Assembly: GCF_009914755.1 (NCBI RefSeq) | Contig: NC_060930.1 | Length of the DNA: 64,000 nt | Origin: the human T2T-CHM13v2.0 reference genome, Homo sapiens | Strand: one strand, 5' to 3' | Part shown: positions 27,715 to 34,081 of the stretch, piece by piece | Layout: every line of letters begins with the position of its first letter | Position numbering within the stretch: position 1 is the stretch's first letter | Translations under genes and position numbers: made by a program | Notes under the pieces: model-generated | Told to the model about the DNA's origin: nothing | Seen by the model: the letters and a program-made list of their open reading frames with translations, nothing else | Databases searched by the model: none

Positions 27715-27862
27715 TTCTTTTATTCGAAAGAATTTCCTGAGTACCTACCATGTTTCAGGCCCTCTTTTACATACTGGTGAACAGCATGAAGCCAGGAAGT
27801 TCCTGCATAATTACTTTTTTAAGGAGAGGGAAAGATACATGGAAAAAACAATGTATAATATA
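27715..27862 (-). mobile_element. L2a 3' end (host element; resumes at 34082 and 34810)
   Basis: TGAGTACCTACCATGTTTCAGGCCCTC..TACATACTGG is antisense L2 3' end. It continues as AAGTGCTCT and AAAGCAGAGTAAGG after the insertions. Confidence 0.65.
27843..27862. repeat. Left target-site duplication AAAAAACAATGTATAATATA
   Basis: Identical 20-mer at 34062-34081. Confidence 0.9.
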
Positions 27863-27867
27863 GACAG

Positions 27868-28028
27868 AGCCGGGCCTAGTGAACATGCATAGTCCCAGCT
27901 ACTTGGGAGGCTGAGGCAGGAGGATCGCTTGAGCCCAGGAGTTCCAGGTTACAGTGAGCTATGATCTCGCCACTACACTCCAGCCTGGGCAACAGAGTGA
28001 AATCCTGTCTTTAAAAATAAGAAAAACT
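27868..28028 (+). mobile_element. Alu monomer (FRAM / AluJ right arm), probably 5'-transduced with the L1
   Basis: AGCCGGGC...AGTCCCAGCTACTTGGGAGGCTGAGGCAGGAGGATCGCTTGAGCCCAGGAGTT...CTATGATC...CCAGCCTGGGCAACAGAGTGA plus an A-rich tail. Confidence 0.9.
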
Positions 28029-28934
28029 GGAGGAGGAGCCAAGATGGCCGAATAGGAACAGCTCCGGTCTACAGCTCCCAGCGTGAGCGATGCAGAAGAC
28101 GGGTGATTTCTGCATTTCCATCTGAGGTACCGGGTTCATCTCACTAGGGAGTGCCAGACAGTGGGCGCAGGCCAGTGGGTGCACGCACCGTGCGCGAGCC
28201 GAAGCAGGGCGAGGCATTGCCTCACCTGGGAAGCGCAAGGGGTCAGGGAGTTCCCTTTCCCAGTCAAAGAAAGGGGTGACGGACACACCTGGAAAATCGG
28301 GTCACTCCCACCCGAATATTGCGCTTTTCAGACCGGCTTAAAAAACGGCGCACCACGAGACTATATCCCACACCTGGCTCGGAGGGTCCTGCGCCCACGG
28401 AATCTCGCTCATTGCTAGCACAGCAGTCTGAGATCAAACTGCAAGGTGGCAGCGAGCCTGGGGGAGGGGTGCCCGCCATTGCCCAGGCTTGCTTAGGTAA
28501 ACAAAGCAGCCGGGAAGCTCCAACTGGGTGGAGCCCACCACAGCTCAAGGAGGCCTGCCTGCCTCTGTAGGCTCCACCTCTGGGGGCAGGGCACAGACAA
28601 ACAAAAAGACAGCAGTAACCTCTGCAGACTTAAATGTCCCTGTCTGACAGCTTTGAAGAGAGCAGTGGTTCTCCCAGCACGCAGCTGGAGATCTGAGAAC
28701 GGGCAGACTGCCTCCTCAAGTGGGTCCCTGACACCTGACCCCCGAGCAGCCTAACTGGGAGGCACCCCGCAGCAGGGGCACACTGACACCTCACACGGCC
28801 CGGTACTCCAACAGACCTGCAGCTGAGGGTGCTGTCTGTTAGAAGGAAAACTAACAAACAGAAAGGAAATCCACACCAAAAACCCATCTGTACATCACCA
28901 TCATCAAAGACCAAAAGTAGATAAAACCACAAAG
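28029..28934 (+). promoter_or_regulatory. L1 5' UTR internal sense/antisense promoter with intact YY1 site (28039-28050)
   Basis: CpG-rich L1 5' UTR. CCAAGATGGCCG YY1 motif. Confidence 0.9.
28264..28479 (-). CDS. ORF0: L1 antisense ORF0, intact 71 aa
   Basis: MAGTPPPGSLPPCSLISDCCASNERDSVGAGPSEPGVGYSLVVRRFLSRSEKRNIRVGVTRFSRCVRHPFL, with ATG (CAT at 28477-28479). Confidence 0.85.
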   Translation of the reverse strand: MAGTPPPGSLPPCSLISDCCASNERDSVGAGPSEPGVGYSLVVRRFLSRSEKRNIRVGVTRFSRCVRHPFL

Positions 28935-30014: not shown

Positions 30015-33000
30015 ATGACAGGATCAAATTCACACATAACAATATTAACTTTAAATGTAAATGGACTAAATGCTCCAATTAAAAGACACAGACTGGCAAG
30101 TTGGATAAAGAGTCAAGACCCATCAGTGTGCTATATTCAGGAAACCCATCTCACGTGCAGAGACACACATAGGCTCAAAATAAAAGGATGGAGGAAGATC
30201 TACCAAGCAAATGGAAAACAAAAAAGGCAGGGGTTGCAATCCTAGTCTCTGATAAAACAGACTTTAAACCAACAAAGATCAAAAGAGACAAAGAAGGCCA
30301 TTACATAATGGTAAAGGGATCAATTCAACAAGAGGAGCTAACTATCCTAAATATATATGCACCCAATACAGGAGCACCCAGATTCATAAAGCAAGTCCTA
30401 AGTGACCTGCAAAGAGCCTTAGACTCCCACACATTAATAATGGGAGACTTTAACACCCCACTGTCAACATTAGACAGATCAACGAGACAGAAAGTCAACA
30501 AGGATACCCAGGAATTGAACTCAGCTCTGTACCAAGAGGACCTAATAGACATCTACAGAACTCTCCACGCCAAATCAACAGAATATACATTTTTTTCAGC
30601 ACCACACCACACCTATTCCAAAATTGACCACATACTTGGAAGTAAAGCTCTCCTCAGCAAATGTAAAAGAACAGAAATTATAACAAACTATCTCTCAGAC
30701 CACAGTGCAATCAAACTAGAACTCAGGATTAAGAATCTCACTCAAAGCCGCTCAACTACATGGAAACTGAACAACCTGCTCCTGAATGACTACTGGGTAC
30801 ATAACGAAATGAAGGCAGAAATAAAGATGTTCTTTGAAACCAACGAGAACAAAGACACAACATACCAGAATCTCTGGGATGCATTCAAAGCAGTGTGTAG
30901 AGGGAAATTTATAGCACTAAATGCCCACAAGAGAAAGCAGGAAAGATCCAAAATTGACACCCTAACATCACAATTAAAAGAACTAGAAAAGCAAGAGCAA
31001 ACACATTCAAAAGCTAGCAGAAGGCAAGAAATAACTAAAATCAGAGCAGAACTGAAGGAAATAGAGACACAAAAAACCCTTCAAAAAATCAATGAATCCA
31101 GGAGCTGGTTTTTTGAAAGGATCAACAAAATTGATAGACCGCTAGCAAGACTAATAAAGAAAAAAAGAGAGAAGAATCAAATAGACACAATAAAAAATGA
31201 TAAAGGGGATATCACCACTGATCCCACAGAAATACAAACTACCATCAGAGAATACTATAAACACCTCTACGCAAATAAACTAGAAAATCTAGAAGAAATG
31301 GATACATTCCTCGACACATACACTCTCCCAAGACTAAACCAGGAAGAAGTTGAATCTCTGAATAGACCAATAACAGGAGCTGAAATTGGGGCAATAATCA
31401 ATAGTTTACCAACTAAAAAGAGTCCAGGACCAGATGGATTCACAGCCGAATTCTACCAGAGGTACAAGGAGGAACTGGTACCATTCCTTCTGAAACTATT
31501 CCAATCAACAGAAAAAGAGGGAATCCTCCCTAACTCATTTTATGAGGACAGCATCATTCTGATACCAAAGCCGGGCAGAGACACAACCAAAAAAGATAAT
31601 TTTAGACCAACATCCTTGATGAACATTGATGCAAAAATCCTCAATAAAATACTGGCAAACCGAATCCAGCAGCATATCAAAAAGCTTATCCACCATGATC
31701 AAGTGGGCTTCATCGCTGGGATGCAAGGCTGGTTCAATATACGCAAATCAATAAATGTCATCCAGCATATAAACAGAGCCAAAGACAAAAACCACATGAT
31801 TATCTCAATAGATGCAGAAAAAGCCTTTGACAAAATTCAACAACCCTTCATGCTAAAAACTCTCAATAAATTAGGTATTGATGGGACGTATTTCAAAATA
31901 ATAAGAGCTATCTATGACAAACCCATAGCCAATATCATACTGAATGGGCAAAAACTGGAAGCATTCCCTTTGAAAACTGGCACAAGACAGGGATGCCCTC
32001 TCTCACCGCTCCTATTCAACATAGTGTTGGAAGTTCTGGCCTGGGCAATCAGGCAGGAGAAGGAAATAAAGGGTATTCAATTAGGAAAAGAGGAAGTCAA
32101 ATTGTCCCTGTTTGCAGACGACATGATTGTTTATCTAGAAAACCCCATCGTCTCAGCCCAAAATCTCCTTAAGCTGATAAGCAACTTCAGCAAAGTCTCA
32201 GGATACAAAATCAATGTACAAAAATCACAAGCATTCTTATACACCAACAACAGACAAACAGAGAGCCAAATCATCAGTGAACTCCCATTCACAATTGCTT
32301 CAAAGAGAATAAAATACCTAGGAATCCAACTTACAAGGGATGTGAAGCACCTCTTCAAGGAGAACTACAAACCACTGCTCCAGGAAATCAAAGAGGATAC
32401 AAACAAATGGAAGAACATTCCATGCTCATGGGTAGGAAGAATCAATATCGTGAAAATGGCCACACTGCCCAAGGTAATTTACAGATTCAATGCCATCCCC
32501 ATCAAGCTACCAATGACTTTCTTCACAGAATTGGAAAAAACTACTTTAAAGTTCATATGGAACCAAAAAAGAGCCCGCATCGCCAAGTCAATCCTAAGCC
32601 AAAAGAACAAAGCTGGAGGCATCACACTACCTGACTTCAAACTATACTACAAGGCTACAGTAACCAAAACAGCATGGTACTGGTACCAAAACAGACATAT
32701 AGATCAATGGAACAGAACAGAGCCCTCAGAAATAACGCCGCATACCTACAACTATCTGATCTTTGACAAACCTGAGAAAAACAAACAATGGGGAAAGGAT
32801 TCCCTATTTAATAAATGGTGCTGGGAAAACTGGCTAGCCATATGTAGAAAGCTGAAACTGGATCCCTTCCTTACACCTTATACAAAAATCAATTCAAGAT
32901 GGATTAAACATTTAAACGTTAGACCTAAAACCATAAAAACCCTAGAAGAAAACCTAGGCATTACCATTCAGGACATAGGCATGGGCAAGGACTTCATGTC

Positions 33001-33840
33001 CAAAACACCAAAAGCAATGGCAACAAAAGACAAAATTGACAAATGGGATCTAATTAAACTAAAGAGCTTCTGCACAGCAAAAGAAACTACCATCAGAGTG
33101 AACAGGCAACCTACAACATGGGAGAAAATTTTCGCAACCTACTCATCTGACAAAGGGCTAATATCCAGAATCTACAATGAACTCAAACAAATTGACAAGA
33201 AAAAAACAAACAACCCCATCAAAAAGTGGGCGAAGGACATGAACAGACACTTCTCAAAAGAAGACATTTATGCAGCCAAAAAACACATGAAAAAATGCTC
33301 ATCATCACTGGCCATCAGAGAAATGCAAATCAAAACCACAATGAGATACCATCTCACACCAGTTAGAATGGCAATCATTAAAAAGTCAGGAAACAACAGG
33401 TGCTGGAGAGGATGTGGAGAAATAGGCACATTTTTACACTGTTGGTGGGACTGTAAACTAGTTCAACCATTGTGGAAGTCAGTGTGGCGATTCCTCAGGG
33501 ATCTAGAACTAGAAATACCACTTGACCCAGCCATCCCATTACTGGGTATATACCCAAATGACTATAAATCATGCTGCTATAAAGACACATGCACACGTAT
33601 GTTTATTGCGGCATTACTCACAATAGCAAAGACTTGGAACCAACCCAAATGTCCAACAATGATAGACTGGATTAAGAAATGTGGCACATATACACCATGG
33701 AATACTATGCAGCCATAAAAAATGATGAGTTCATGTCCTTTGTAGGGACATGGATGAAATTGGAAATCATCATTCTCAGTAAACTATCACAAGAACAAAA
33801 AACCAAACACCGCATGTTCTCACTCATAGGTGGGAATTGA
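30015..33840 (+). pseudogene. ORF2: L1 ORF2p (endonuclease/reverse transcriptase) with two -1 frameshifts
   Basis: Starts MTGSNSHITILTLN. A6 instead of A7 at 30220-30225 and A3 instead of A4 at 33677-33679. The 1176-aa ORF between them retains GDFN, SDH, FADD and the CCHC knuckle. Canonical stop GGGAATTGA at 33840. Confidence 0.93.
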
Positions 33841-34061
33841 ACAATGAGATCACATGGACACATGAAGGGGAATATCACACTCTGGGGACTGTGGTGGGGT
33901 GGGGGGAGCGGGGAGGGATAGCATTGGGAGATATACCTAAGGCTAGATGATGAGTTAGTGGGTGCAGCGCACCAGCATGGCACATGTATACATATGTAAC
34001 TAACCTGCACAATGTGCACATGTACCCTAAAACTTAAAGTATAATAAAAAAAAAAAGAAAA

Positions 34062-34081
34062 AAAAAACAATGTATAATATA
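34062..34081. repeat. Right target-site duplication AAAAAACAATGTATAATATA
   Basis: Directly follows the L1 poly-A and is identical to 27843-27862. Confidence 0.9.

What the first reader, a model, noticed from the sequence alone, without database searches (positions are those of the whole stretch)
27843..34081. Full-length L1PA2 with an apparent 166-bp 5' transduction carrying an Alu monomer
Seen: the 20-mer directly after the L1 poly-A (AAAAAACAATGTATAATATA, 34062-34081) does not recur at the L1 5' end (28029). It recurs, identically, 166 bp further upstream (27843-27862). The extra segment (27863-28028) is 5 unique nt plus a visibly diverged FRAM/AluJ-right-arm monomer. Removing everything between the two copies rejoins an antisense L2a. 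Known: L1 TPRT makes 7-20 bp TSDs, and 5' transductions arise when a source L1 is transcribed from an upstream start. They are much rarer than 3' transductions. Inference: an old monomer inside a pristine TSD means monomer and L1 arrived as one RNA, so an inactive Alu was re-mobilised as 5' cargo.
Basis: partly seen in the sequence, partly recalled or inferred. Interest (0 to 1): 0.8.

Follow-up and report, generated by a model that had tools for sequence, protein, structure and literature searches.

The report
L1 5' transduction with source found
A full-length L1 jumping gene on chromosome 6 carried 165 bases of its parent's upstream neighbour (half of an old Alu) from a chromosome 5 locus; this kind of event is rare but already known.

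Summary
The 20-mer occurs exactly twice in the window (27843-62 and 34062-81; 0 of 100 shuffles gave two). It brackets one extra G, a 165-nt non-L1 tag and a 6.0-kb L1.

The 44-nt tag/L1 junction occurs at exactly one other place in the assembly, chr5:33,237,386. There the same Alu arm abuts a full-length L1 that has its own 16-bp TSD around the L1 alone. Window 27864-34066 aligns to that locus at 98.0% identity, and the flanks do not align. So chr5 is the source and the window copy is its offspring by 5' transduction.

- **Not a FRAM.** On chr5 the "monomer" is the 5' part of a short, 5'-truncated retrocopy (A21 tail, 13-bp TSD). The retrocopied transcript end lies at chr6:30.22 Mb, where the Alu is dimeric and an AATAAA precedes the cleavage site. 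The Alu arm was therefore mobilised twice.
- **Date.** Parent and offspring differ at 1.29% of non-CpG sites, roughly 5-10 Myr. Both L1s now have broken ORFs.

This is a well-documented mechanism, so interest is modest.

The parts
27843..27862 (+). 5' copy of the target-site duplication. It is 20 nt as written; 14-20 nt are real TSD, because the leading A6 cannot be told from poly-A.
   Evidence: Exact 20/20 repeat, found only twice in the window; 0 of 100 shuffles gave two or more.
27863..27863 (+). One extra G at the 5' junction. It is absent from the chr5 source, which has C there. It is either a reverse-transcribed cap or an untemplated nucleotide.
   Evidence: Three-way alignment. BLAST homology with chr5 starts at 27864.
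27864..27867 (+). ACAG: the last 3 nt of the chr5 flank (the end of the older retrocopy's TSD) plus the extra G at that retrocopy's 5' junction. These nucleotides are chr5-specific and are not in the chr6:30.22 Mb original.
27868..28012 (+). Right arm of an old Alu, carried as 5'-transduced cargo.
   Evidence: Differs from chr5 by 1 substitution and 1 single-A indel. Matches the right arm of a dimeric Alu at chr6:30.22 Mb. Matches at least 11 window Alus at 72-85% identity.
28013..28028 (+). A-rich Alu tail AAAAATAAGAAAAACT. At the chr5 source this is the 5' copy of that L1's own TSD.
   Evidence: The motif occurs at L003 996 and 7042, flanking the chr5 L1, and once in the window at 28013.
28029..34061 (+). 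It comprises a 5'UTR, a frameshifted ORF1, an ORF2 with two frameshifts, a 3'UTR, and a poly-A tail with an internal G at 34057 that it shares with the chr5 parent.
   Evidence: Pfam hits: Transposase_22 (5.8e-64), Tnp_22_dsRBD, Tnp_22_trimer, RVT_1 (5e-45), Exo_endo_phos. ORF layout. 98.0% identical to the chr5 L1. Tails compared.
34062..34081 (+). 3' copy of the target-site duplication.

Best explanation
The window holds the offspring of a genuine L1 5' transduction, and its source is identified. The events ran in this order.

1. A polyadenylated transcript ending at chr6:30,220,615 (T2T-CHM13) has an old dimeric Alu just upstream of its AATAAA. L1 machinery retrocopied it to chr5:33.237 Mb as a short, 5'-truncated copy: the right Alu arm, 41 nt and an A21 tail, with a 13-bp TSD.
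2. A full-length L1 then inserted into the internal A-rich stretch of that retrocopy, making a 16-bp TSD.
3. An RNA was made from the chr5 locus whose retained 5' end lies 164 nt upstream of the L1. It ran through the Alu arm and the whole L1 and ended at the L1's own poly-A site.
4. That RNA was inserted by target-primed reverse transcription at chr6:142.75 Mb, giving a 14-20-bp TSD.

Steps 1, 2 and 4, and the parent-offspring direction, are shown by sequence anatomy. Two things are inferred: where the chimeric RNA began (a local start site or truncation of a longer RNA), and the date of roughly 5-10 Myr.
For: **The repeat.** The TSD occurs exactly twice and is not a chance repeat.

**Uniqueness of the markers.**
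- The junction 44-mer occurs exactly twice in the 3.1-Gb assembly, in the window and on chr5, with 0 mismatches. The backwards-read control gave 0.
- The Alu-arm 42-mer occurs only on chr5 and at chr6:30.22 Mb.
- The chr5 flank+arm 41-mer occurs only on chr5.

**Extent of homology.** BLAST of window 27400-34600 against 9.9 kb of chr5 gives one collinear match, 27864-34066 = L003 848-7046, at 97.95% identity. Neither flank aligns.

**The chr5 L1 has its own TSD.** AAAAATAAGAAAAACT lies at L003 996 and 7042. The older TSD AAAAGCAATCACA lies at 838 and 7116, outside the Alu arm and the 41-nt+A21 piece.

**A stand-in empty site.** At chr6:30.22 Mb the two halves that the chr5 L1 separates are contiguous (L005 1502/1503). 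This serves as an empty site for the chr5 L1 insertion.

**chr5-specific marks carried by the window tag.**
- ACAG upstream of the arm.
- The CpG-to-TpG change that chr5 has and chr6:30.22 lacks.
- An internal G in the poly-A tail, shared by both L1s: A11-G in the window, A12-G on chr5.

**Precedent in print.**
- 5' transductions from upstream promoters are documented. 156 of 208 L1 progenitors gave only 3' transductions, and one 8q21.11 L1 gave 22 5' transductions (PMC12350158, passages read).
- 124 5' tags of full-length L1s start more than 100 nt upstream of the element (PMC2768975, passages).
Against: - No outgroup genome could be examined, so an empty chr6:142.75 Mb site has not been seen directly.
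- The bottom-strand target at the window site reads TTTTTT/CC, not the preferred TTTT/AA (preference as stated in PMC2912911).
- The older retrocopy differs from its chr6:30.22 Mb original at only 2 of 201 nt, both CpG transitions, with 0 non-CpG changes. At the 1.29% non-CpG divergence of the later parent-offspring pair, about 2.5 non-CpG changes would be expected. That is mildly odd (Poisson p about 0.08) but not contradictory.
- Only one offspring carries the tag, so there is no sibling family to corroborate a stable upstream start site.
Confidence: 0.93

Rival explanations
1. Same 5' transduction, different origin of the 5' end. The chimeric RNA began far upstream on chr5 (a host or read-through promoter). 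The 165-nt tag is what was left after reverse transcription stopped early, and the G at 27863 is an untemplated nucleotide. It would not be a true start site 164 nt upstream of the L1.
For: - The older chr5 retrocopy, which is certainly 5'-truncated, also has one extra G at its 5' junction. A lone G is therefore not specific to caps.
- 14.6% of 5'-truncated L1 insertions carry extranucleotides (PMC2912911, Table 4).
- The only TATA-like motif nearby (TATAAAAG, L003 835-842) ends 6 nt before the 5' end. From recalled knowledge that is too close for a TATA-directed start.
Against: - There is no microhomology at the 5' junction, whereas nearly 80% of 5'-truncated L1 insertions have some (PMC2912911).
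- Extra G at full-length insertions is attributed to the reverse-transcribed cap, and extranucleotides at full-length L1s to upstream initiation (same paper).
- For a long precursor, truncation landing within 165 nt of a 6-kb element is a narrow target.
Confidence: 0.3
2. Nested insertion at chr6:142.75 Mb. An old Alu monomer was already there with its own TSD, and the L1 later landed in its tail. The 20-mer would then be the Alu's TSD.
For: Alu tails are favoured L1 targets, and the sequence just before the L1 is A-rich.
Against: - The identical arm+L1 junction exists on chr5, where the L1 has its own TSD.
- The window copy carries 4 chr5-specific nucleotides and the chr5-specific TpG.
- The motif AAAAATAAGAAAAACT, which flanks the chr5 L1 as its TSD, occurs once in the window (at 28013), so it is not repeated after the window L1.
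- The 41-nt piece that follows the arm in the original is missing after the window L1.
- A 20/20 intact TSD would be unlikely around an insertion as old as the Alu.
Confidence: 0.01
3. Template-switch chimera (U6-L1 type). During reverse transcription at chr6, the enzyme jumped from the 5' end of an L1 RNA onto a separate Alu-containing RNA.
For: It would give the same layout: foreign sequence, then L1, then poly-A, all inside one TSD.
Against: A genomic locus already holds the two parts contiguously with a base-for-base identical junction. One continuous RNA therefore explains everything without a switch. An independent switch reproducing the exact junction is not credible.
Confidence: 0.02
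4. DNA-level duplication or gene conversion between chr5 and chr6, rather than an RNA-mediated copy.
For: The two 6.2-kb stretches are 98% identical.
Against: - Homology ends exactly at the poly-A on one side and at a single point 165 nt upstream of the L1 on the other.
- The window copy is flanked by a new TSD at a T-rich target.
- No flank homology exists.
Confidence: 0.01

Closest known systems
L1 5' transduction from an upstream start. Examples: the 8q21.11 source L1 with 22 germline 5' transductions (PMC12350158), and upstream-initiated full-length L1 transcripts (PMC2768975).
   Same: A full-length L1 plus contiguous upstream source-locus DNA lies inside one TSD and ends at the L1 poly-A. 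The source locus is traceable through the tag.
   Different: - The event is old and the copy sits in the reference assembly (1.29% non-CpG divergence from its parent), whereas the published examples are polymorphic.
- No splicing is involved.
- The cargo is a repeat fragment, not unique sequence.
- Only 1 offspring carries the tag.
Short mRNA-derived pseudogenes of 300 bp or less (Terai et al., PMC2831318; abstract read).
   Same: The chr5 piece that supplied the cargo is a 201-nt retrocopy of a transcript's 3' end. It has a poly-A (A21) and a 13-bp TSD, and an AATAAA lies about 20 nt before the cleavage site.
   Different: Most of it is an Alu arm, so homology searches that mask repeats would miss it. 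The parent transcript could not be named here.
FRAM / free Alu monomers
   Same: It is a single right-arm-like Alu unit of old (AluJ/FRAM-like) sequence type. The subfamily call rests on recalled consensus features, not on a tool.
   Different: It is not a free monomer by origin. At the original locus the same arm is the right half of a dimeric Alu. The left half was lost by 5' truncation during the first retrocopying.
Template-switch chimeric retrogenes (U6-L1, Alu-L1 chimeras; recalled literature, not read here).
   Same: Foreign RNA-derived sequence is fused to the 5' side of an L1 within one TSD.
   Different: Here the fusion pre-exists in genomic DNA at the source, so no RNA-RNA switch is needed.

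Membership tests
L1 5' transduction | A full-length L1 whose 5' end abuts non-L1 sequence, with both inside a single TSD and a 3' poly-A. | tested here: met
   The L1 5' end at 28029 includes the CAAGATGGCC stretch that I recall as the YY1 box. The TSD lies at 27843-62 and 34062-81.
L1 5' transduction | A source locus where the same non-L1 sequence lies directly upstream of a full-length L1 that has its own TSD. | tested here: met
   Junction 44-mer: 2 of 2 genome matches are the window and chr5. The chr5 L1 TSD lies at L003 996 and 7042.
L1 5' transduction | Homology between source and offspring is limited to the tag, the L1 and the poly-A; the flanks are unrelated. | tested here: met
   One collinear high-scoring match, 27864-34066, with nothing in the flanks.
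L1 5' transduction | An empty pre-integration site in an outgroup or in other individuals. | not testable with these tools
   No primate or population genomes are available here.
LINE-1 element | ORF1p domains plus an ORF2p endonuclease and reverse transcriptase. | tested here: met
   Transposase_22, Tnp_22_trimer, Tnp_22_dsRBD, Exo_endo_phos and RVT_1, all above the Pfam cut-offs. The frames are interrupted.
   Only the 3'UTR triplet was checked. The window has GAG where Ta elements have ACA (against the statement and probe in PMC6354063). So it is not L1HS-Ta. L1PA2 could not be separated from L1PA3 without a repeat library.
FRAM (free right Alu monomer) | Arose and spread as a monomer, not as part of a dimeric Alu. 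| tested here: not met
   The original copy at chr6:30.22 Mb is the right arm of a dimer of about 290 nt that aligns end to end with full Alus of the window.
Short processed pseudogene (the chr5 cargo donor) | A poly-A tail, a TSD, and a parent locus with a polyadenylation signal but without the poly-A. | tested here: met
   A21 tail and 13-bp TSD. The parent has AATAAA and continues as non-A genomic sequence.
Template-switch chimeric retrogene | The two parts are not contiguous at any genomic locus. | tested here: not met
   They are contiguous on chr5.

The most novel reading that the evidence does not exclude
The tag's 5' end (chr5:33,237,247, followed in the offspring by a cap-like extra G) is a real transcription start. 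It would have been created where a short retrocopy with an Alu arm landed beside an L1. On this reading the locus is a caught-in-the-act example of how an L1 lineage can acquire new upstream leader or promoter sequence, the process thought to underlie the repeated 5'UTR replacements in primate L1 history. It is also a case of one dead Alu arm moved twice by two different non-Alu routes.
Probability: 0.2. Interest if true: 0.5.

Novelty: new member of a known kind. Interest (0 to 1): 0.3.

Why it matters
The value is that of a clean worked example. Three successive L1-driven events can be read base by base from one assembly: a transcript 3' end retrocopied, an L1 inserted into that retrocopy, and then a 5' transduction. 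This shows that repeat-only cargo can still be traced to its source by its junctions. It also shows that an apparent "FRAM" next to an L1 may have a quite different history. It does not change what is understood about L1 biology.

Tried and rejected
- **Naming the parent transcript at chr6:30.22 Mb.**
  - No stop-to-stop ORF of 70 aa or more in the 10 kb upstream looked like a coding exon by eye. These ORFs were not scanned against any family library.
  - A Pfam Rpr2 (RPP21-type) exon lies about 10.8 kb upstream, at chr6:30,209,697-30,209,795.
- **Phrase searches for "5' transduction".** The prime sign hampered them. Searches were syntax errors. Searches found 1 and 4 papers. I found no paper describing this particular chr5-to-chr6 event, but these searches are too blunt to say it is not in print.
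- **Papers not held.** Lavie 2004 and Athanikar 2004 are not held. They are cited only through other papers' reference lists.
- **3' transduction offspring of the chr5 L1.** The 43-nt piece just downstream of it occurs only on chr5 and at the original locus (2 of 2 matches). None are present.
- **Longer 5' transductions from chr5.** The flank+arm 41-mer occurs only on chr5. None are present.
- **A local promoter.** The TATA-like motif 6 nt upstream of the tag start was considered and set aside as too close. The spacing rule is recalled.
Not testable, because no repeat library is available.
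Full report
**1. The observation**

The 20-mer AAAAAACAATGTATAATATA occurs exactly twice in the window, at 27843-27862 and 34062-34081. Allowing up to 2 mismatches adds nothing. None of 100 dinucleotide-preserving shuffles gave two matches.

- The 3' copy directly follows the L1 poly-A, which reads A11 at 34046-56, G at 34057 and A10 at 34058-67. 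The last six A are ambiguous between tail and duplication.
- The 5' copy lies 166 nt upstream of the L1 5' end at 28029.
- Between them lie one G, a 165-nt non-L1 stretch and a 6.0-kb L1.
- The L1 identity is supported by Pfam: three ORF1p domains, RVT_1 at 5e-45 and Exo_endo_phos.
- The 145-nt core of the extra stretch (27868-28012) matches at least 11 Alu-sized repeats of the window at 72-85% identity, several of them twice, as expected of an Alu arm.

**2. A second locus with the same junction**

A 44-nt pattern spanning the Alu-tail/L1 junction was searched in the whole 3.1-Gb assembly with up to 3 mismatches. It matched exactly two places, both with 0 mismatches: the window itself and chr5:33,237,386-33,237,429. 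The backwards-read control gave 0.

I fetched 9.9 kb around the chr5 match as L003 = chr5:33,236,400-33,246,300. BLAST of window 27400-34600 against it gave one collinear alignment, window 27864-34066 = L003 848-7046. It has 97.95% identity, 115 mismatches and 7 gap openings. Neither flank aligned. The only other hit is a small inverted L1 3' fragment 2 kb downstream on chr5.

**3. Which is parent and which is offspring**

On chr5 the L1 (L003 1012-7041) is flanked by its own 16-bp duplication AAAAATAAGAAAAACT, at 996-1011 and 7042-7057. Outside that pair lies a second, older pair, AAAAGCAATCACA, at 838-850 and 7116-7128. The older pair encloses, in order:

- one extra G;
- the Alu arm;
- the interrupting L1;
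- a 41-nt stretch containing AATAAA;
- a pure A21 tail.

So on chr5 the L1 inserted into a pre-existing retrocopy and duplicated only its own target. In the window one duplication encloses arm plus L1, and the 41-nt stretch is absent after the L1.

The window tag begins with ACAG. That is the last 3 nt of the chr5 flank plus the extra G of the chr5 retrocopy junction. Both L1 tails share an internal G: A11-G in the window, A12-G on chr5. This is as expected if the chr5 transcript was cleaved inside or after the genomic A-tail.

The direction chr5 to chr6:142.75 Mb is therefore shown by anatomy. The window L1 is a 5' transduction of 165 nt (27864-28028) plus one unmatched G (27863).

**4. Where the "monomer" came from**

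The 43-nt stretch downstream of the chr5 L1 matches one other place in the genome, chr6:30,220,573-30,220,615, with 1 mismatch. There the same arm is the right half of a dimeric Alu of about 290 nt. It is followed without interruption by the same 41 nt with AATAAA, and then by ordinary non-A sequence.

- The two halves that the chr5 L1 separates are adjacent there (L005 1502/1503). This acts as an empty-site proxy for the chr5 L1 insertion.
- The arm's 42-mer occurs only at these two loci. The window copy has a 1-nt insertion inside it.
- The chr5 piece is therefore a short, 5'-truncated retrocopy of a polyadenylated transcript's 3' end, of the kind catalogued by Terai et al. (PMC2831318, abstract). 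It is not a FRAM.
- It differs from the original at 2 of 201 nt, both CpG/TpG.
- I could not name the parent transcript. No ORF of 70 aa or more in the 10 kb upstream looked like a coding exon by eye; I ran no family scan on them. An Rpr2-domain exon lies about 10.8 kb upstream.

**5. Age and state**

A global alignment of the parent-offspring pair gives the following:

| Measure | Value |
|---|---|
| Mismatches | 115 in 6195 aligned sites |
| At CpG-context sites | 38 of 216 |
| At non-CpG sites | 77 of 5979 (1.29%) |
| Indel events | 6 |

Using recalled rates, this puts the copying at very roughly 5-10 Myr ago. The recalled figures are about 0.17% per Myr per lineage, as used for L1 dating, and human-chimpanzee divergence of about 1.2%.

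The 3'UTR triplet is GAG, not the ACA of L1HS-Ta (against PMC6354063). L1PA2 and L1PA3 could not be separated.

Both copies are now broken (with indel positions):

- **Window copy:** a frameshift near the ORF1 start and two frameshifts in ORF2.
- **chr5 copy:** in-frame stops in ORF1 and a 7-nt deletion in ORF2.

**6. How the chimeric RNA started**

This step is inferred. The retained 5' end maps to chr5:33,237,247. The offspring has one extra G there and no microhomology.

- **For a real capped start.** Kojima (PMC2912911, passages) attributes extra G at full-length insertions to the reverse-transcribed cap and extranucleotides at full-length L1s to upstream initiation. He finds microhomology at nearly 80% of truncated insertions. 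Rangwala et al. (PMC2768975) found 124 5' tags of full-length L1s starting more than 100 nt upstream.
- **Against it.** The certainly truncated chr5 retrocopy also carries a lone extra G. No convincingly spaced promoter motif is visible.
- **My odds.** About 2:1 for a local start over truncation of a longer RNA.

**7. Rivals**

- **Nested insertion.** Excluded by the shared junction, the chr5-specific nucleotides, the absence of the chr5 TSD motif after the window L1 (it occurs once in the window), and the missing 41-nt piece.
- **Template switching.** Unnecessary, because the two parts are already contiguous in chr5 DNA.
- **DNA duplication.** Excluded because homology stops at the poly-A and at the tag start, with a fresh TSD.

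**8. Comparison with what is known**

L1 5' transduction is established and is rarer than 3' transduction. 156 of 208 progenitors gave only 3' events, and one 8q21.11 element gave 22 5' events from an upstream promoter (PMC12350158; the preprint version was read).

This case is an older example in the reference assembly, with a single tagged offspring and no 3'-transduced offspring. I found no paper describing this particular event. Those searches cannot find the primed phrase reliably, and I looked at no supplementary tables.

**9. Verdict**

This is a new member of a known kind, of modest interest.

Noticed in passing
window 34157-34599 (+): The downstream flank of the insertion is an old L1 ORF2/3' fragment in the same orientation, 72% identical to positions 5382-5820 of the young L1. 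The young L1 therefore landed about 75 nt upstream of a much older L1 remnant.
   Followed up: partly
L003 9003-9125 (chr5:33,245,402-33,245,524), minus strand: An inverted 123-nt L1 3'-end fragment, 95% identical to window 33931-34053, lies about 2 kb downstream of the chr5 source L1.
   Followed up: no
L005 1212-1543 (chr6:30,220,284-30,220,615): A transcript 3' end has a diverged dimeric Alu immediately before its AATAAA. It lies about 10.8 kb downstream of an Rpr2-domain (RPP21-type) exon at chr6:30,209,697-30,209,795. It gave rise to the chr5 retrocopy, but I could not name the transcript.
   Followed up: partly
L003 838-851 and window 27863: Both retro-insertions in this chain (the chr5 short retrocopy and the window L1) carry exactly one unmatched G at their 5' junction. 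One of the two is certainly a 5'-truncated copy.
   Followed up: partly
window 27740-27800: By eye, the upstream flank resembles a MIR-type core rather than L2. This rests on recalled consensus only, and no repeat library was available to test it.
   Followed up: no
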